DNA of 63,923 nucleotides, the filler included, from Olpidium bornovanus S191 (taxonomy: Eukaryota > Fungi > Olpidiomycota), in assembly GCA_017911155.1 (NCBI GenBank). It is 30 parts of 30 records of this genome, joined end to end, with 100 filler letters (N's around TTAATTAATTAA, not from the genome) between each part and the next. Parts side by side here need not be neighbours in the genome. Positions count along the whole stretch, not along the records: positions 42,563 to 43,991 come from JAEFCI010002117.1; 29 more parts are not named here. One strand, 5' to 3'. Positions 2,555 through 56,049 of this stretch are shown piece by piece (the stretch's first letter is position 1; the number at the start of each line of letters is the position of its first letter). The notes under the pieces were generated by a model. It saw only the letters and a list, made by a program, of their open reading frames with translations, made no database searches and had not been told where the DNA came from. Both the position numbers and the translations under genes were made by a program.

Positions 2555-5500
2555 ATGGCCGCACCGGAGGCGGAGGTGACGCTCGAAAGCGCAGTCAGGA
2601 ACGTCCAGGTGACGATCGAGACGTGCCGACTCGACGGCCCCGTTTCGACCGGCGTCGTCTACACGCCCCTGTGGATGACGAACTGCATCGACCACAAGGC
2701 CTACGAGTGCGACGAATACCCCCACCTGTCGCGCGAGACGGCGTACATGACGCAGATGGAGGACGCGCTGCAGGTCGGCGAGGACTTCATGTGGATGCTT
2801 TACGCATACAGGAGCTGCGCGAGGGCGATACCGCAGGTTCGTTTGGCCGGTTAAGGGAGACGCAGATCCCTCCCTCCCCCACTTCTCCCCGAGGGTTGAA
2901 CCTGCCAAGTTGGGATTTTTGGAGCATTGGAGAGAAGGGGGGGAAAGGCGTTGTTGTCTTTTTTGCCCCTGACAGGCGAAAGATTTGCGAAATCCCGCTC
3001 CGCCTCAGCTCCAGCAAACATCGCAATCGCTCGACGGGCCGAACAAGGACGAGCTCTACCTGCTGACGTACCAGCTCCTGAAGGAGGAGGTCACGAAAAT
3101 GAAGAGGCTGAAGAAATTCTGCGATCAGATCTCGGCTCTCGTCTGCCGCGTGATCGAAGGCGTCGCGCTCGACCAACGAGAAAACTTCGCTTCGCCGGAA
3201 TTTCTGTTTACGTTGGGCAAAGTGATGAACCTGTTCGTTGTCATGGATGCTCTCAAGAACATGAAAGCGTCCTTAAATAATGATTTCTCGATGTACAAGA
3301 GGTGAGGCAAAAGCTGAACGGGAGATGGGAGGGGTCGGTGGGGGGGAGTTAGGATCAATACGGAAAAAATGTTTTCGCAATTATACCGGCTTTCAGCCCG
3401 GGCGACACTTCTTTTTGATTATAATCCTCTTTGCGGACAGGACTCTTTCAAACCTCACAAAAATGTCACATTCTATCCCGGACGAGACGGCCGAGAATCA
3501 CGAGCTCTACCTTTTTTTGGGAAACCACGACCGGTTTGCCGCCAAGCTGAAGGAGGAATTAGCAAAAGTGCGAGGTTTCGACGACGTTCTCGTCGATATG
3601 GCAAACACTTTGGCCGACATGTTTGAACGCGAAATGTACGTGCAGCCGTCATCTAAGCATCTGCTTCTAAAGGTATGGGTGGGCGCCGGGGGGGGGGGGA
3701 CCAGATTTTCTTTTTGTTTTTTTGCCAAAAAAAACATTATTCAGGGAACCCCCCCTTTTTTGCAAACAAGCATGTACTTCGCTTTCGTGTTTTTCTCAAT
3801 TTTCAAAAAAAAATTTTTTCAGGCAATGGCTTTCGGACTTTCTTTGGCCGACCTGCCGGGCGACGAGAGAGACGTCACAAAGAAGAAGAAACAACTGCGC
3901 ATCGACCGGTTTTTGAAAATCGTCCGCGCCCTGCCCGTGGTGCCCCTGTTCGGGGACATGTCCATCCGGCTGTCTTCAATATTTACCAAGACGCCGCACC
4001 TTTCGGCGCTCAAGTGGGACCCGGTCGTCGACCACCCGACAGTTGCGGCCAGTTACAGCCTGCTCGCGCACGTCGAGACCGCGCAGAAAGAGTACGACGA
4101 CTTGGTTTGCGATCTCGGGCAGACCGTGAACACCGCATACCAGATCGAGGAGGGCGACGAGCAGGCCCCCGCGGCGGCGAGGCAGGCTTACTCGATGATG
4201 CTTAAGGGTCTACTGTTCGTGTCTCAGCTGACGGCAAAAGTTTTGGAGCAGGTGGGAATTCAGCACCGTGCGTGTGAGGCGGGGGGGGGAGGAGAGGAGG
4301 AGGGGAAAAAAAAAATCTGGCGCGGGCCAAGGATTGGTACGTTCCGCTCAAATTTACTGTCGTCGGCGTCCAGAGCGCGTGGAAGTACACGCATCCAACC
4401 AATTCCCAGACAAATCCCTCGTGCCCGGAAGGAGCGACGCTCTACGAAATGGTATGCCGCGCGCGAACGGTTTCATAAACAATTTCATCCCGGTCTTCGT
4501 CGGGCCGTGCGGTCGGGGTTGGGCGGGGTAGGGGGGAGGGGTGTTCACGCCGTCCAACGCTGCGAACTTGCACGCCGGCAGGCCGTCCGCTACAACTACT
4601 CTAGCGACGAGTTGCTTGCGGCGTTCCGATACGTCTCCATGATCAAAGAGCTCGTGGGGATTCTTTCGAAGGCCGACGGTCTCCTTTTTTCCGTGATAAG
4701 GCGGCACGTCTACACGGACGTGCAGCTTTTCGTCCGGACGACTCTCGAGGAAGTAATCGGAAACACCGTCAAGCGGAAGCGGCCGATCGCCAGGTAAACA
4801 TGCGCGGGAGGAGGGAGGAGGTGGGGGAGGGGTGGTTTCCCGAGTGTTGCGAGAGGGGGGGGGGGGTGCGAGAGGGGTGTGTGTGTGTGTGGCGGGGAAG
4901 GTGGACGCTTCCGGCAAAACGCGGCTGACCTCACCGTCGCACAGCGTTCTGAAACACATACGCAACATAGCGGGGGGTTGGGCGGGCGGCGCCGACTTCC
5001 CTGACGATACCGGATTTTCGAGCCCCACGAAATCCAGCAAGCACGACGCGCCGGCGATCCCGAAGCGAAAGTGCTCCATCTCCTGCGCCCAGGTGAAGGC
5101 TCCTCCATTTATCGCAACGTCAATTTTTTTGTTTTTTTTTTCCCCTGGCCGCCCAATAAAAAAAAAAGACTGCCGCAAAGGAGGATCTTTTACCGGCGTT
5201 TCTTTTCTTACTTTTATTTTTTTTTTTTTTTTTTTGTTTTTGACGAAAACTAAAAAAAAAAAAAACTCTTTGCCCTCGCCCAGCTGCGGTTCATCCGAGC
5301 GCTCCTTGACCAGTGTTACAACGAGAAGGCCAAGGGCATGAAAGGCGGTCTGCTCAAGGAGAAGGACCTCAAGGAGAACCAGGTGGAGGAGATGAATTTG
5401 TTCTCCGACAGGTCGTTCTACTATGGCGCGATGCTGAACTACATGAGTGGGTATTGCCGACTCTTTAAGGGGTCGGAAAAGAGGGGGAAAAAATTATTCC

Positions 5501-6108
5501 CGATTGAGAAAAAGAAAAGAAAATTTCCCTTATCAGCCGGGATAATCCCCGATGTCCTTTTTTTATTCTGGTCCGACGCGTTTTACAGACGCCTTGGCCG
5601 AAAGCTCCGACCTGTCCGACCTTTGGTACAAAGAGTTTTACCTTGAACTGAGTCACGAGATCCAGGTGCGCGCACGCCTCTCTTTTTTTTTTTTTTTTTT
5701 TTTTGTTTTTTTATGTTCTTCTAAAAAGAAAAATTGTTTCGGAAAAACAAAAATTAAACAAAAAATGTTAACGTCTAAAAAAAACCCCCAGTTCCCGATT
5801 GAGATGTCACTGCCGTGGATGATCACCGAACGCGGCCTCGACGGCGAGGACGTGGAGACGCTCGAGTAAGCCTCCTACACTTTCCCCCGGCTCCTCTTCC
5901 CTTCCTTTCCCCCGTCGTCTACGGAAATGCGAAAAAAAATGTGCCCCCCCCTCCCTCTTTTCCCCCCCATCCCCCCGCCGTTCTTTTTGTTCCCTCGCCT
6001 CACGAGTCCAGGCGCCTGGTTTACCCCTTGGACATATACAACGACGCGGCAAACCGGGCTCTGCACCGAATGCGGGTGCAGTACATGTACGACGAAATAG
6101 AAGCCGAG
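2555..6108 (+). CDS. CYFIP: CYFIP/Sra1/PIR121, WAVE regulatory complex subunit, 3'-truncated
   Basis: Eleven GT-AG exons: 2555-2836, 3010-3301, 3441-3672, 3823-4251, 4374-4451, 4582-4793, 4945-5092, 5284-5446, 5589-5665, 5792-5865, 6012-6108. Conserved motifs YRSCARAIPQ, DALKNMKASLNNDFSMYKR, VVPLFGDMSI, WKYTHP, AVRYNYS, DLSDLWYKEFYLEL, FPIEMSLPW, YPLDIYNDAA, YDEIEAE. Confidence 0.95.
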
Positions 6109-6544
6109 GTAAAAAAAGACGACAAATGGTGGTGGTGGGTGGCAGCGCGGCGGCGCGAACCTTCCTCCGCGGAGTCGGGGCCCCGGTTTTTGCGACCCGC
6201 ATTTCAAAAAAGAAAAAAAAATAACTGTTAACCGACTTTTTCAAACGTGCACACTCGCACTCTCGCCCCCGCTTCGTCTTCTTTCTTCTTATTCTCCTTT
6301 TCATGNNNNNNNNNNNNNNNNNNNNNNNNNNNNNNNNNNNNNNNNNNNNTTAATTAATTAANNNNNNNNNNNNNNNNNNNNNNNNNNNNNNNNNNNNNNN
6401 NNNNNAATAAATGGGGTAGTTGTTATGGAACCAACTGCCCCATCCTGAACTTGCCATTTTCGATATAATGATTTTTTTTGCACACCACGGCAATATCGTA
6501 AAATAGAATTCTTCATCAGATGCATGCGGTGACAAAGATTGTCT

Positions 6545-42462: not shown

Positions 42463-43250
42463 NNNNNNNNNNNNNNNNNNNNNNNNNNNNNNNNNNNNNN
42501 NNNNNNTTAATTAATTAANNNNNNNNNNNNNNNNNNNNNNNNNNNNNNNNNNNNNNNNNNNNCCTCCTTCCCGACACAACCCCAAGGCCACATCGAGCCC
42601 TCGATGAAACAAGGCCAAACCGCCCGAGAACAAGGGCAGCTGCATCTCTTCTGCCTGTGCGGCGGCCGGTGTCGAGGAATATGAACCCTCCCTCAAGGGG
42701 TGGCAGGGGGATGGGATGGCTGGGGCCCTTGCTGGGTGCTGCGCGCAATTCCTCACGATCCAATCCCCGCAACATCGACCAAGCAATGGCAGTGGGGCAA
42801 AAACACAACCTGGAGGCGAAGCAGACGTGATGTGTACACGACGATGTCGGTACAGATACCAGGGAGAGGTTCGCGCGACATTGATTTATTTTTGCAGAAG
42901 GAGCTCGTGTTGGCTGTCTTGTGATATTTTTCGGTGATGTCGCGTTGGTGACTGCCAATATATCAATGACATATCTGGGGGGTTTGTCTCGCGCTGACTA
43001 CAACCAAAACCGGCACCCGCAGTCGACTAACGCGCACCGTCAAACGGGCGTCTACCGTCTTTGTTTCAAGTTTCGGACGGTCCTCGTCGCCCGGCCTGTC
43101 TGCCGTGGACATCCCTCACCCGCTTCCCGCAGTCTAAAGCACCCGCGATTGAGGCCGCCAGGATCTGCAAAATAGTTTATAATTCACAGCCCCTTCGCGT
43201 TTTGGGTTCCTTCAGCGTCTGCACAACCAAGGCCGCTGCGCGACATCGAC

Positions 43251-43991
43251 TTATGTCATTTTAAGTTGGGATTTAGCTTCCAGTTTCATGCGGTATGGCA
43301 AGGCCACGCACTTTCCGTCCTCGTTGAGTTGTTGTCCTGTCCACTTTCTGCCGGAAAGACGGGCGGGGAGGCAGATGGGCTTCACGTTTTTGTCACCAAA
43401 CAGAAACACTTGAGACGCTATTCTTTTTTTCTTGTTTTTCACCACCGCGCTCTTGTTGTCGTCGTACTCGAGCAACTCGTAGCACGCCTTTTTGTACGCT
43501 TCGCTCTCGACTATGGTGTTTTTCAGGATTGTCACGCAACCGGCCTTTTTCGCTCTCCAGATGTACAGGTTCGGCGAACGGGGGATTTCGAAGTCGGCTT
43601 TCTGCTTATTGTATTCGATAACGATTATGCTCACGAAAGAAAGCCTCTTCGAGGACCCTGTAGAATTTTGCGGAGTCCAGCGTCACGCTAGGGTTCCCGA
43701 AATCGGATGTGATCTCGTCCAACGTGCTGTAAGGGTTTTCTTGTTTGGCCAGCCACGGGTTGAACTTGTGCGTTTTTCTGAATTCGACAGGATCAGCGTC
43801 GAGTTTGAGGCCTTTGATCACGCAGCGGAGGAACGAGGACGCGTCCTGCTTCACTCCCACCCTCTTCACACCCTTCAAGGTGGAGAGCAGAGTTTGGATC
43901 CGGACGCCGCCCTTCCCCTCGTCTCCTTCTTCTAGTTTCCTGCGCTCTGCTGCTATACAGCAGCCCGGCATTTGTGGCTCACCAGTTCGCG
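43251..43991 (-). pseudogene. Giant-virus (Nucleocytoviricota) early transcription factor large subunit-like fragment, frameshifted
   Basis: Two overlapping intronless ORFs join by removing one base at ~43635: PGCC..RKLEEGDEG..LL..VKRVGVKQDASSFLRCV..AKQE..TLDEI..NPSVTLDSAKFYRVLEEAF/FVSIIVIEY..FEIPR..CVTILK..CYELL..QQLNEDGKCVAL. The motif order matches A7L-like VETF-L of irido/marseille/pithoviruses as I remember it; not searched. Confidence 0.65.
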
Positions 43992-44550
43992 NNNNNNNNN
44001 NNNNNNNNNNNNNNNNNNNNNNNNNNNNNNNNNNNTTAATTAATTAANNNNNNNNNNNNNNNNNNNNNNNNNNNNNNNNNNNNNNNNNNNNCATGCAAAG
44101 TAATGGGCAACTCAGCGGGAACGGGAAATGCGGTCACGGCGAAACGTGTAAGCAAAAGCTGCAACCTGCAGGTGTAGAAAGGGGGTTCGTCGTGGAAATG
44201 GTCGGTGGAATACGAAAGAAAGAAACGACGACAACAACAAAAAAAGTGTCGGTGGACGTGGAAGGTATAAATGCGCAATGCAAGTCGAGGTGACTTGTAT
44301 GAGACGGGCTGAGATGGGGGGAGGGAGGTTATGGGTAGGGGAAATCGAAAAGGGTGTGACGTAAAGAAAAAAAAAAAACTATGCAGGGTAATGTGAGCAA
44401 AATAAAAAAAGTGTGCTGTTTGGGTTTCGGCGGAGGGAACAACCCGCCCCCCCCCCCGCCTTGAACGTGCGCGAGCGTGGGCAGGTGCGAGGAAACAGTG
44501 CAGGGGGACACGATATGAAATAATGGTTGGGTGTGGAAGAGGCTCCGCGG

Positions 44551-47169
44551 TCAATTCGCCGCCTTGTTCGCGGAATTCGCGCGCGTCGTTTTCGGCCCGT
44601 TCATTCGCGCCGCGGGTGGGCTCTCGCATGATTCGGCTTTGCTGGCGTCCGCGGCCGCGCTTGAAACGCTGTCGGACGACGGCGATGAGAGCGTCGTCGA
44701 CGTCTGCATCGAGGACGACGACGACGACGACGACGAAGACAGCGACAGCGACATCGACAACGGCAACGGCAACGGTTTCTCCTGCTCGGCCGCCCGAGGA
44801 CGGCAGCGCGCGGTGTCGCCGGTTCCGCAGAACTCGAACGTGCTGACGGCGAAGCGCGGCGACTGGGTGCCGGTGTTGTGCTGGGCGGTTCCTGGCGCAG
44901 CCGAGGTCCTAAAACAGCCGCCCGGCCCGGCGAGTCCGGAAGAGATCGCATACGGAGTCGATGGCCACTGTTGTCGAGCGTGCGACTGCTGCTGCTGCTT
45001 GAGTTGTTGTTGACTGACATCCGGAGCTTGCCATATGGGGCTCTCTGTACCGCCGCCGCTCGCTGTGCCTTCGAGAGTCTGACTGTCCCTCACCCAGGGC
45101 CCGCACGAGACGCCTTCATGAGCCGCGGGCGAAGACGGCAAGCCGGCTTGAGACACGCCTGCCATGACGGCTCTAGTCATCTGGAAGCCTAGGCGGCGGT
45201 GAAGCTGGGGGCCGTTGTAGGGGACCGGCGGGGGGCTGAGGGGGCCATTGGGGATGTACAGAGAGCTGCTAGGAACGGCAAGCAACGAAGGAAATGCATG
45301 CTGTTGGGGTGGCTGCTGCTGGGGAGGCTGCTGCTGTCGGACGCCGAGTGGGTTTTTCGAATAGGAAAGGCGGACCCCGTTCTTGACGGAATTGGCGAGC
45401 ATGATCCCCTGGAGATCATGGAGAGCTGTAGATGGATAACGAACGCGGGGTCACGTGGTGCCTGTTCGCTAGAACTACCCGCCTCTCGGCGCACCACAAA
45501 GGAACGGCGGAGGACCCCTTCACTCGGTTTACCTTGTGTAGAGCACACGACGTCGTCGAACTCCACAAAACACATCGGGCCGTTGGCTTTCGGCTTGAAG
45601 CACATTCTCTTGTAGCCGCGGCGCCTGGAAAAGAGCAGACACAGCTCCTCCTCGTTTGTGTTGAGCGGCAGGTTTCCGACGTACAGGGTGTTGCAAGGCG
45701 GATTCTGGTCGCCGGGGTTCGTCGACGACGGGTTGAAACTCGGAGAGAGCGCCGTTCCCGCCGCGGAAGTCCCCAGCGGCGCGTACGCGCCAGAAACGTT
45801 CAGAGGACCGTTCGCAGCCGCGGTGTTGATCGACAGGTGCTCGAACCGAGCGGAGTGACTTCCGTCTACGAGGCCGGCCGCCGAGAGCGGCTGCGGCGGG
45901 GGAGACGTCGCATCCGACGAACAAAGGTCGCTCGCCACAGAGGGCCCGGCGGAATGGCCCTCGTAACCGGCCGAACGGCGCAAACCAGCGGCGCCGCTTG
46001 CGAACACGGAGGAGTGGAAGCTCTGGGTCTCGTTGGGCGGAGCGGACTGGAGCGCCGATCCTAAATCGGAAAGTGGCCCGCCCTCTGCCGCGCCGGATGA
46101 CCATAATTCTTGCGGGGTCGACACTGGAGCGTCTTGGAGGAGCGGCGGCCCCACCGGTTCAAGGCGCGTGATGCGCGGAGCCGAGAACTGGGCATTGATT
46201 GACGGTCGCCTTCGCCGGAGGAGCTGGTGATCACCGTAATCGCTGCTGTCGGAGGAGTTCTCCTGGTTTGGCTTCCACAAGCCGCGCAGCGAGTCGCTCG
46301 GCAAACCGAAGTAGTCAGGCGCATCGGCGGAGGCGCTGGACGCGGTCGGCTCACTCTCGGATCCAACGACCGCGTTGGGATCCGTTGAGGCCGCGCAGAG
46401 GTTGGCCGGCAGACCGCACGCGCGATCCGTGCCGGGATCTTGCGGCGACATCAGCAAACCGGACGGCAGAGACGCACTGCAGGTGGCCGGGAAAGAACAG
46501 AAAGCGTCGCACATCACCGGCGGGCAGATGATCGAGGGCAACGGTTGGAACGACTGTTTCCTGGTCACAGCCGGGGAGATCAACGGCGAGCCGCCCTGCA
46601 TGTGCGGCGCAGCCCACGGCGCGGGAGAGAACGCCGACGAAAAGTACTGCTCGTTGGAGAGCCCACGCTTGGTGTGGAGGTTCTTCTTCGCCATTTCGGC
46701 CTTCAGGACGGATCCCTTTTCCGCGTCCACCTTCCGACCGCTAAGGACGTCGCGGGCCTCAAGTGCGTCCAGCCTTGTTCGAAACTTCGCAAATCCGATC
46801 TGATATTTTAGTGCACCAGGTTCAGGATAGTCAGTGTTCGTCCCGAGTTCGACTCACCGCTCGGCATCCGAGGTCAGGTCCGGCCTCTTCCGCAGCCTGT
46901 GGAGGACGGATTTTCGGACCACTTACGATTTGCTTTCTGGGGTTGGCCATCGAGCCGCTGAGTGGATCAACATCTTCCGCGGAAAATGTCGGGATCTTCA
47001 GGGTGGCCGCCTCAAAACCGACGCAGAACACGAACATGTTCTGGAATTCGCGTTCCTGCATGTCTTCGGGAAACCCGACGACGAATATTGTGCTAGAAAA
47101 GCGGAATGTCAATAGCCGGATAATCGTCTTTCCCCGTGCCGGTGCCCTGCGACCCTTGCACCCCCCCCC

Positions 47170-53702: not shown

Positions 53703-56049
53703 CATGCAAACGCTCCAGTCCGACAGGGAAGGCAAATATATCACGAAGGAATGGACGGACACCTTGGCTCGTTGCGGGATCAGGCACTAGATTTCCGCAC
53801 GAGATTTTCCTCACCAAAATGGAATGGCCGAGCGCGTCAGCCGGACTTTGGGCGAACGGATCCGGGGTCTACTTCAGCATCACAGGGCGAAAAAGAACTT
53901 CTGGGGGAAGGCGGCCGCAACGGCAGCGTAGTTATATAACCGGACAAAACATTCCGCGATCGGGAAAACTCCTTACGAGGCCTGGCACCGCAGGCAGCCA
54001 CGCCTTTGGCATTTGCGGGTGTTTGGTTGTCTGGCGGTCCTCCGAATTCCGGGCAACAAGAAGAAGCTGGACCCACGTGGTCAGCGAGCAGTCTTCTGTG
54101 GGTTATTCGGGGGAGAGGGAGCGCTGGCGGTTCTGGTTCGGCAACGAAAAAGATCGTGTGGAGTCTGGATTCCGAAATTTTCGAGGACCGCAGAGCGGCT
54201 TCATCAATAATCCAGAACAGCAGAAGCAATTGATGAGGACCCGCTTGTCGATAATATTGACAGTGCGGAGAGTGCGGTCGGTGCCGATAAACATCGATCG
54301 AAACACCTCCGATCCCGAGGGAGCGAGGCGACTCCCGTCGACGATGACGACGACAATGAGGACTTCCATGAGGCGCAGGAAGAGGCGACGACAACAACGG
54401 CGACCCTGCGACGGTCGCAGCGAGAACGGCGTCCTCTTAGCGCATGGAGCACGACATTTCGAAAGTCTGAGGAATATCAACGTGCAGCCTGGCGCTCCCT
54501 CCTCCTGTGGGATGCTGAGGCCGTCCAAAACGACGATGCAGCTCAGATCAGCTTCGCCTTGTGCTTTGCGGGCAGCGAGGGAACAGAGCCACGCAACTAC
54601 GATGAGGCGCAGAAATCTCCTGTATGGAGGGAAGCGATCGATTGGGAGCTTGCGGCGCATGCGGCACATGGGACGTGGGACCCGAAGGCAGTTCCACTCC
54701 CTGCGGGCAGATTTGCGATCAGCTGCAAATGGATTTTCAAGGCGCAGCGCCATGCAGACGGCAGCTTCAAGAAGTACAAAGCCAGGCTGGTGGCTCGCGG
54801 TTTCACGCAGCTGACAGGCGTGGATTTCACTGAAACCTTTGCCCCGGTGATGCGACTGGCTACTCTTCGGGTCTGTCTGGCACTTACAGTCGAGAAAAGG
54901 CTCGTCATGTCGGGAGCCGATGTAGCAACCGCCTACCTGAACAGCGATCTCGAGGAGGAGCTCTACCTTGCGGCACCTCCAGGCACAACGGTGCCCGACA
55001 GGCACGCACTCAGATTGCGGGGTCCAATCTACGGGTTAACGCAAGCTGTACGTGCGTGGGTGGCGCGCTGGGAAAGGGCGCTCGCCAAACAGAAATTCCA
55101 ACGGCTCCGATCAGATCCCGGCGCCTTCGTCGACGAAGAGCGTTTGACATGGGTCCTGACGTGGGTCGACGATCTCGATGATGCTGATTACAGAAGTAAA
55201 AATTTCGCGCGCGGGCGCGATCGCTTGCAGGAGATCGAAAAAGCCTTTTCCGTCGAGTTCCGAATCAACGCAGGTCCGCTGAGCTCCCTTCTAGGTCTGC
55301 GTGTCAGAACGGACGACGATTCCGTCCCGACGTCGATTTCCATCAATCAGACCGCTTATTTGCTTGCGACAAATAATTCGGCGGTTCGAAACATTCGGTC
55401 TAGATGTTGACATCATTACTCGTGTCGCTTGCCGCCTCCAATCGCGGGGAGCGCGTCGACACGAAGAGATACAAGGAGCTCGTTGGTAGCCTCCTTTTTG
55501 TTGCGATGGGAACGCGACCGGACATTGCATTCATCGTGGGCTACATCAGGAGGCACCAGTCAGATCCTCGTCAGGCGGACTGGGACGCCAGCCTGCGGGT
55601 GCTTCAGTACCTTCGTATTACCATGGATTGGGCGCTTACCTTTAAGAAGTCTGGCTCCGTCAGTAGCCGCCACTTCCAGCACCGAAGTTGAGTATATTGC
55701 GTTCGCAGAGGGCTGCAAAGAAGCTCTCTGGCTCAGACAGCTCCTTGTCGAGTTGGGCGAGAAGGCGATCAGCATCGGAGTCACGGATGACAGTCGGGGC
55801 GCGCAGGCTCTTGCGCAGAACCCAGTGCACCACCAGCGCAGCAAACATATCGACGTCCGATGGCACTTCGTGCGCAATGTCATAGCTCAGAAACAAGTCA
55901 CCATCGTCGACGGTCGGAGCGCCGATATGGTCGCCGACGTGCTTACCAAGATTCTCGACAAGGGCCGCCACGAGAAGCACGCGCGCGGGATGGATTTTGA
56001 TTCGTCGCGTTGCGCGCGCTGCGGGGGAGCGTTAGCTGTAAATTGTTAA
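53703..56049 (+). mobile_element. Degenerate Ty1/copia pol (integrase end - RT - RNase H)
   Basis: MNGRAER..TL, FWG.AAATAAY.YNR, TPYEAW, LRVFGC, KKLDPRG; EPRNYDEA, CKWIFK, YKARLVARGFTQ..GVDFTETFAPV, DVATAYLN, IYGLTQA, WVDDL; YKELVGSLLF..TRPDIAF, TSSTEVEYIA, HQRSKHIDVRWHFVR, ADVLTK. Several frameshifts, and the DxDWA segment is deleted. Confidence 0.96.

What the first reader, a model, noticed from the sequence alone, without database searches (positions are those of the whole stretch)
42563..43991. Giant-virus-like early transcription factor fragment in a fungal assembly
Seen: about 740 nt with no need for introns, whereas recognised host genes here are usually interrupted every 50-400 nt. 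There is a single-base frameshift at ~43635 and a stop at 43251. From my memory of the family, the ordered motifs PxCC - KxLxxGxxG - RxGVxxxxxSFLxCV - KQE - LDxxxFYRxLEExF - EIPR - CxELL - QxLxxxGKxxAL match the A7L-like VETF large subunit of irido/marseille/pitho-like viruses. Inference: this is an endogenised, decaying Nucleocytoviricota segment or a co-sequenced giant virus of a zoosporic fungus. The stop-ridden remainder of the contig may be further decayed ORF. Caveat: the frameshift site also reads as a GTGAG donor.
Basis: partly seen in the sequence, partly recalled or inferred. Interest (0 to 1): 0.8.

Follow-up and report, generated by a model that had tools for sequence, protein, structure and literature searches.

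The report
Broken giant-virus transcription factor gene fragment
A 650-base piece of a gene matching the early transcription factor of pithovirus-like giant viruses sits, frameshifted and cut at both ends, in the draft genome of an intron-rich eukaryote, likely as a relic of past viral integration, while related copies that look unbroken turn up in RNA samples carrying the same organism.

Summary
Mostly confirmed. The 1,429-nt contig carries a 649-nt minus-strand piece (43947-43299) of a Nucleocytoviricota early transcription factor large subunit (VETF-L). A model of its first frame matches Pithovirus sibericum VETF-L best (E 3e-5). Its closest relatives (46-52% identity) are unannotated compact 664-744-aa proteins with a predicted TBP-like plus Cys-less OTU-like build, grouping with proteins from chytrid and moss assemblies. 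The frameshift is real: near-identical contigs bridge it ungapped and unspliced in 3 of 4 transcriptomes, from 2 studies. Corrections: the PxCC motif is out of register, the 43251 stop lies 46 nt past the end of homology, and the flank shows no decayed viral ORF. One contig splices a 76-nt GT-AG intron out of the flank, pointing to a nuclear copy. Related copies that appear to run on in frame occur in all four runs; their source (other loci, sister species, live virus) is open. Best reading: an endogenous, functionless relic of a pithovirus-related lineage, of the kind reported as fundsalphaviruses; family membership untested. No host-gene junction was seen and the fungal host is not shown.

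The parts
43639..43947 (-). First homologous frame (103 codons): N-terminal two thirds of the OTU-like middle domain of VETF-L
   Evidence: tblastn 51% to P0002, 47% to P0003; model pLDDT 92; Foldseek best hit P. sibericum VETF-L E 2.9e-5, TMq 0.82
43635..43638 (-). Frameshift: four bases against one residue of the relatives
   Evidence: crossed without gap or skip by near-identical contigs in X1, X2, X4
43299..43634 (-). Second homologous frame (112 codons): rest of the OTU-like domain and start of the C-terminal part; homology ends about 120 residues before the relatives' C-termini
   Evidence: tblastn 40% to P0002, 35% to P0003; profile E 1.4e-30
43948..43991 (-). Non-homologous 5' flank, open frame by chance, holds the out-of-register PGCC motif
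   Evidence: not aligned; motif spacing; related contigs run on unlike the window beyond 43943
43236..43311 (-). 76-nt GT-AG intron removed in one transcript contig; donor lies in the last codons of the viral piece, acceptor in the flank; the frame closes 17 residues after the joint
   Evidence: joint 43235-43312 in X2, one contig, depth 4.3, 32 nt on the short side; ends and frame
43251..43253 (-). Stop codon of frame B, outside the homologous part and inside the spliced interval
42563..43298 (.). Unrelated 3' flank with no recognisable gene; 42666-42865 is matched by several about 90%-identical contigs per run, so is likely a dispersed repeat
   Evidence: no terminal repeats or target-site duplication around the viral piece

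Best explanation
The contig holds a frameshifted, doubly truncated 649-nt piece of a giant-virus VETF large-subunit gene, likely a functionless relic integrated in the host's nuclear genome and likely derived from a pithovirus-related lineage. Shown: homology, both breakpoints, the frameshift and its recurrence in other samples. Inferred: a virus (or an earlier endogenous copy) with a compact, roughly 700-residue VETF-L donated the DNA; an internal piece came to lie in repeat-rich host DNA, took one frameshift, and is inherited; weak host transcription reads through it and the spliceosome can use a chance donor. The intact protein would bind early viral promoters through its TBP-like domain and recruit viral RNA polymerase, as vaccinia VETF-l does (PMC12917281); this piece lacks the whole predicted TBP-like domain, so it cannot do that.
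For: 13 hits among 1.84 billion representatives, best E 7e-25, none a cellular family. Foldseek of relative P0003 against viral models: 66 matches at E<=0.001; all 24 named rows of the top 27 are pitho-, soli-, solum-, orpheo-, marseille- or iridovirus proteins (best 4e-27), asfar-like first at rank 28, mimi-like at 35, vaccinia at 44. The window's own first frame gives the same ranking. A profile of 44 canonical relatives (43 with DUF5757) hits frame A at E 5e-10. Window + 7 compact + 4 longer proteins form one branch, 98/97 support, that includes a chytrid-assembly and a moss-assembly protein. All four laid runs hold a control host gene at 99% or better with its intron removed, and with shared differences from the window, so they are RNA of other isolates of this organism; three of them carry the same frameshift. 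One contig is spliced GT-AG and joins the viral piece to its flank. GC (0.52) and GC3 (0.71) are in the host range.
Against: No host gene is on the contig and no read set links it to one; no whole genome was held. The splice rests on one contig of depth 4.3, with the letters between the sides not known. X5 holds only the flank (42970-43132) at high identity. RNA libraries can carry DNA. No named virus is in the tree, BFVD may lack Mycodnavirales proteins, and whole-model TM-scores are low (0.2-0.33), so the order is a best match, not a placement. The compact group plus window has only 82/53 support. Pfam and NCBIfam do not recognise the piece.
Confidence: 0.72

Rival explanations
1. The piece is a broken duplicate of a host gene family that was domesticated from a viral VETF-L; the unbroken-looking transcripts are host genes for a TBP-like DNA-binding protein.
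For: Related contigs that appear to continue in frame occur in 4 of 4 runs; host-like GC3 of 0.71; the compact relatives lie on short contigs (longest 2.3-14 kb).
Against: The compact relatives are single uninterrupted ORFs, several from metagenome DNA collections, whereas host genes here are intron-rich; differences between the window and related copies are only weakly enriched at third codon positions (15 of 31 listed, p 0.06); divergent versions of the control host gene are in the same runs, so a sister species could supply the copies.
Confidence: 0.13
2. The contig comes from a co-sequenced, non-integrated virus or virus-like linear element (a defective genome) that travels with the host.
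For: No host junction seen; no intron needed inside the piece; compact relatives sit on contigs up to 13-14 kb, the size of fungal helper virus-like elements (PMC13348850, parts 1-2 read).
Against: An essential gene broken in the same place in samples of two studies, cut at both ends and flanked by a dispersed repeat; spliceosomal-type joint; no terminal repeats; the VLE paper does not mention VETF.
Confidence: 0.1
3. It is a cellular or viral OTU deubiquitinase gene piece that merely resembles VETF-L.
For: The domain has a predicted OTU fold: Z 9.9, rmsd 3.7, 134 aligned for P0003; Z 6.5, rmsd 2.5, 72 aligned for the window frame.
Against: 0 of 59 aligned rows have Cys at the place of the OTU nucleophile (Ser 52, Ala 4, Thr 3; the OTU motif itself is recalled); VETF-L models rank far above OTU proteins; relatives carry the N-terminal TBP-like domain.
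Confidence: 0.02

Closest known systems
VETF large subunit (vaccinia A7; VETF-like proteins of Pithovirus sibericum W5S6Q4, Orpheovirus, Solivirus, marseilleviruses, iridoviruses)
   Same: Predicted fold and motif order of the middle domain; relatives have the TBP-like domain.
   Different: Closest relatives are 664-744 aa and begin at the TBP-like domain, against a median 1,201 aa in 44 canonical relatives; the window copy is a broken internal third.
Fundsalphaviruses (Gong et al. 2020, PMC7017919): Pithovirus-related endogenous elements in 14 fungi of six phyla and in a moss
   Same: Pithovirus-side affinity, frameshifted copies, multiple copies per genome, fungal plus moss distribution of the clade.
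   Different: Defined by DNA polymerase trees; VETF-L is not among the six shared genes and 'VETF' has 0 hits in its supplement. No polymerase is available here, so membership is untested.
Mycodnaviridae / Mycodnavirales (PMC13533422, PMC13524828)
   Same: Giant-virus DNA integrated in genomes of zoosporic fungi, from single genes to whole proviruses, mostly silent.
   Different: Placed basal to Imitervirales; this protein matches mimivirus-like VETF-L far worse (4e-9) than pithovirus-like (4e-27). No Mycodnaviridae VETF-L was on hand to compare.
Fungal virus-like elements, helper plasmids (PMC13348850)
   Same: Nucleocytoviricota-derived transcription genes kept in fungi; helper size 13-16 kb resembles the longest contigs of the compact clade.
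   Different: No VETF-L mentioned; no terminal repeats or protein-primed polymerase seen here.

Membership tests
VETF large subunit family | Structural or profile match to named VETF-L proteins | tested here: met
   Foldseek top hits for the window frame and for P0003; profile of DUF5757-bearing relatives hits frame A at E 5e-10, frame B at 0.01
VETF large subunit family | TBP-like domain | tested here: met
   Met in the relative P0003 only (residues 1-237, Z 8.9, rmsd 4.8, 164 aligned); the window piece starts downstream of it
VETF large subunit family | Pfam Pox_VERT_large or DUF5757 match | tested here: inconclusive
   None for the window frames or the 10 closest relatives; DUF5757 in P0011; these models cover other regions or distant families
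VETF large subunit family | Intact reading frame (functional subunit) | tested here: not met
   Frameshift and truncation at both ends
VETF large subunit family | Promoter binding with VETF small subunit | not testable with these tools
   Needs biochemistry on an intact relative
Pimascovirales | Placement in a marker-gene tree with named references | tested here: inconclusive
   Best structural matches are pitho/marseille/irido (their order is recalled), but the trees hold no named virus
Fundsalphaviruses | PolB grouping with the fungal/moss clade sister to Pithovirus | not testable with these tools
   No genome held; no context locus found for the close relatives
Fundsalphaviruses | Linked D5, SNF2 helicase, SAM methyltransferase, RPB1/2/5 genes | tested here: inconclusive
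   None on the 1.4-kb contig or among 296 long frames of the window; contigs too short to tell
Mycodnaviridae | GVOG7 or MCP placement basal to Imitervirales | not testable with these tools
   No markers available; VETF-L similarity points elsewhere but no family member was compared
Endogenous viral element | Disabling mutations inherited across isolates | tested here: met
   Same frameshift in 3 of 4 runs, 2 studies
Endogenous viral element | Physical junction to host genes at host depth | not testable with these tools
   Contig has no host gene; no DNA reads available; one spliced contig joins the piece to its flank
OTU deubiquitinases | Catalytic cysteine | tested here: not met
   0 of 59 rows; motif position recalled

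The most novel reading that the evidence does not exclude
This organism persistently carries a transcribed pithovirus-related virus or reduced virus-like element with a streamlined, roughly 700-residue VETF-L; the window piece is its fossil, and the unbroken-looking copies in 4 of 4 transcriptomes from three studies are its live genes. That would give the fossil-only fundsalphavirus-like lineage its first extant host system, separate from Mycodnaviridae.
Probability: 0.25. Interest if true: 0.75.

Novelty: new member of a known kind. Interest (0 to 1): 0.45.

Why it matters
By itself a short broken viral gene in an early-diverging eukaryote assembly is a known kind of thing: at least five giant-virus lineages are already reported from fungal genomes (PMC13533422, Discussion). 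It matters as a lead. It marks an unannotated VETF-L clade that Pfam misses, shared by environmental contigs and by chytrid and moss assemblies, and it points to public transcriptomes in which related copies seem to be expressed. If those belong to an active element, a pithovirus-related virus of fungi becomes directly testable. The predicted inactive OTU fold inside VETF-L is a side result on how this factor was built from host parts.

Tried and rejected
No whole genome held, so the screen for MCP, PolB, A32 and RNAP could not be run. Pfam and NCBIfam: no real hit for either frame. Word-based protein search with frame A: 0 of 200 candidates. Context searches found no locus for the window or its close relatives: viral contigs, metagenome contigs (31, 52), prokaryote genomes (92); only the outgroup P0016 was found, in a giant-virus MAG contig beside an SNF2 helicase. 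Sequence profiles against PDB: no real hit; Foldseek PDB: none at E<=0.001, vaccinia VETF-l chain at 1.8e-3; it is not listed in the VIA runs. Atlas hits to Nucleocytoviricota clusters score under 0.9 and are leads only. Pfam of the 296 longest other frames (of 615 at 60 aa or more) shows only host-type families and a copia reverse transcriptase; weak, since Pfam also misses this piece. Bins without cover (for example 43955-43991) show nothing. No terminal repeats or target-site duplication; Rfam only a sub-threshold snoRNA; no copy elsewhere in the window. PDB searches with four host frames confirm eukaryotic genes but do not fix the kingdom. The full careful tree of 59 rows did not finish (one search is the quick tree); one search used 28 of the 59 rows, dropping 30 canonical relatives and one near-duplicate. 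Four look-ups of earlier findings returned nothing. Not in print as far as searched: searches gave no paper on VETF-L in fungal genomes, on an OTU fold in VETF-L, or on giant-virus elements in the host genus I guessed from recall; the library lacks most subscription papers, and 6 of 10 supplements of PMC13533422 were unreadable.

Full report
Setting. The window is 30 short contigs joined by N/TTAATTAATTAA spacers; the finding is one whole contig, 42563-43991 (1,429 nt, GC 0.54, within the 0.52-0.69 range of the others). Adjacent contigs are unrelated. Other contigs carry intron-split eukaryotic genes (CYFIP, Ras family, DHODH, NifU, PXA, VHS, RRM, CCT theta, PMI) and a copia reverse transcriptase. 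No whole genome was held.

Observation. Two minus-strand frames overlap at about 43640. Frame A searched against 1.84 billion representatives gave 13 hits at E<=0.001: four proteins of 664-744 aa at 46-52% (E 7e-25 to 8e-19), two more of 670-690 aa, four of 1,019-1,076 aa and three of 1,097-1,327 aa. tblastn shows collinear homology at 43947-43639 and 43634-43299, with four bases against one residue at the switch; the relatives go on for about 350 residues upstream and 120 downstream. So the piece is 649 nt and cut at both ends. The stop at 43251 lies 46 nt beyond it. The flank has no recognisable gene.

Identity. Pfam and NCBIfam miss both frames and 12 of the 13 relatives; P0011 has DUF5757. 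A model of the full-length relative P0003 (pLDDT 67) gave 66 viral matches at E<=0.001; the 24 named rows in the top 27 are pitho-, soli-, solum-, orpheo-, marseille- and iridovirus proteins, most annotated as VETF large subunit (best 4e-27), with asfar-like at rank 28, mimi-like at 35 and vaccinia at 44. A model of the window's own frame A (pLDDT 92) matches P. sibericum VETF-L first (E 2.9e-5, TMq 0.82); 4 matches reach E<=0.001 and ranks 1-22 are of the same kind where named. A profile of 44 canonical relatives hits frame A at E 5e-10 and frame B at 0.01 among 1,235 pieces, and 14 of 14 other relatives at 2e-9 or better. Against solved structures P0003 has a TBP fold at 1-237 (Z 8.9) and an OTU fold at about 345-524 (Z 9.9); the window piece is that OTU-like domain and a little more (Z 6.5 for frame A alone, a middling value). 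No row of 59 has Cys where OTU enzymes have their nucleophile (motif recalled), so the fold is predicted to be inactive. Vaccinia VETF-l recognises early promoters with a TBP-like domain and pairs with a TFIIB-like factor (PMC12917281, passages only). The window piece lacks that domain.

Relatives. The window, seven compact and four longer proteins form one branch (98/97 in a 28-row tree; 99 SH-aLRT in the 59-row quick tree); compact plus window is weak (82/53). The longer group includes a protein from a Gaertneriomyces (chytrid) assembly and one from a Sphagnum assembly, each on a contig of about 105 kb. The nearest outgroup found in context lies in a giant-virus MAG. No context could be had for the compact group in eight scans; its contigs reach 2.3-14 kb. 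The trees hold no named virus, so the pithovirus-side affinity rests on Foldseek ranks.

Reads. Five runs of three studies hold part of the contig; four were laid. On a control host contig all four match at 99% or better, skip the same GT-AG intron and share single-base differences from the window: they are RNA of other isolates of this organism. Near-identical contigs cross the frameshift without gap or skip in X1, X2 and X4; X5 holds only the flank at that identity. The break is therefore real and inherited, and the 43634 donor is not used in these contigs. One X2 contig skips 43236-43311, a 76-nt GT-AG interval, tying the viral piece to its flank in an independent sample and suggesting nuclear transcription; it is a single contig of depth 4.3 and the frame closes 17 residues later. 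Depths are 2-8 against 6-70 for the host gene, but contig depth does not measure expression. The same runs hold other versions: pieces 85-91% identical along 43302-43943 in X1 and X2 (part of it in X4) that run on unlike the window past both ends, and a more distant version, matched over 41 nt, in 4 of 4 runs. Read by eye from the loose ends, these continue in frame at the frameshift site and past 43302 with residues like those of P0002. Against over-reading: versions of the control host gene at 85-90% are also present, so a sister species may be the source, and only 15 of 31 listed differences fall at third codon positions (p 0.06; 25 further rows were not shown).

Explanation. Most likely (0.72) an internal piece of a viral VETF-L gene lodged in repeat-rich nuclear DNA, was hit by one frameshift and is passed on without function. 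Few other lesions and a clear coding pattern (GC1/2/3 0.51/0.36/0.71) suggest it is young. No insertion mechanism is visible. Rivals: a broken copy of a domesticated host family (0.13), a free defective element (0.10), an OTU enzyme (0.02).

Known work. Gong et al. (PMC7017919; parts 1-2 of 3 of the text, part 1 of 7 and a term search of the supplement) report Pithovirus-related endogenous elements with stops and frameshifts in 14 fungi and a moss, defined by DNA polymerase; VETF-L is not among their genes. Myers et al. (PMC13533422; abstract, first half of Results, Discussion, passages; 6 of 10 supplements unreadable and these may list relevant hosts) describe Mycodnaviridae near Imitervirales and count at least five fungal giant-virus lineages. 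PMC13524828 (passages) names Mycodnavirales. PMC13348850 (parts 1-2 of 7 and passages) covers fungal linear virus-like elements, without VETF. The finding works like a fundsalphavirus-type relic; membership could not be tested.

Verdict. Real, correctly named at the protein level, smaller than first read. A new member of a known kind, interest 0.45; the compact clade and the apparently expressed relatives are the part worth following.

Noticed in passing
P0010 (KAJ3177363.1) and P0006 (CAK9189255.1): VETF-L-like proteins annotated as hypothetical host proteins in a chytrid and a Sphagnum assembly, each on a contig of about 105 kb; these contigs may be unrecognised giant-virus or proviral sequence.
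   Followed up: partly
P0001-P0004, P0008, P0009, P0015 cluster: Compact 664-744-aa VETF-L clade that starts at the TBP-like domain and is missed by Pfam; all on contigs of 14 kb or less.
   Followed up: partly
P0003 residues 345-524; window 43947-43450 (-): The middle domain of VETF-L is predicted to be an OTU protease fold without catalytic Cys in all 59 rows; one five-term paper search found no mention.
   Followed up: partly
window 42666-42865: Short stretch matched by several about 90%-identical contigs in X1, X2 and X5; likely a dispersed, transcribed repeat; no Pfam or Rfam match.
   Followed up: partly
window 44092-47150: RRM gene with introns at 45426-45532 and 46800-46926; the runs also hold 85-90%-identical versions of its RRM exons, from paralogs or a co-occurring sister species.
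   Followed up: no
window 54211-55407 (+): Open copia-type reverse transcriptase frame (RVT_2, E 1e-36).
   Followed up: no
window 3277-6228 (+): Intron-split CYFIP/Sra1 gene; from recall, this WAVE-complex subunit is kept in early-diverging fungi and lost in Dikarya.
   Followed up: no
L001 3183-17617: Giant-virus MAG contig with VETF-L beside an SNF2 helicase, a NADAR protein, an L544-type nucleotidyltransferase and a weak Z-alpha match.
   Followed up: no
whole window: 29 artificial N/TTAATTAATTAA/N spacers join 30 contigs of 1-6 kb; gene order across them is meaningless.
   Followed up: yes
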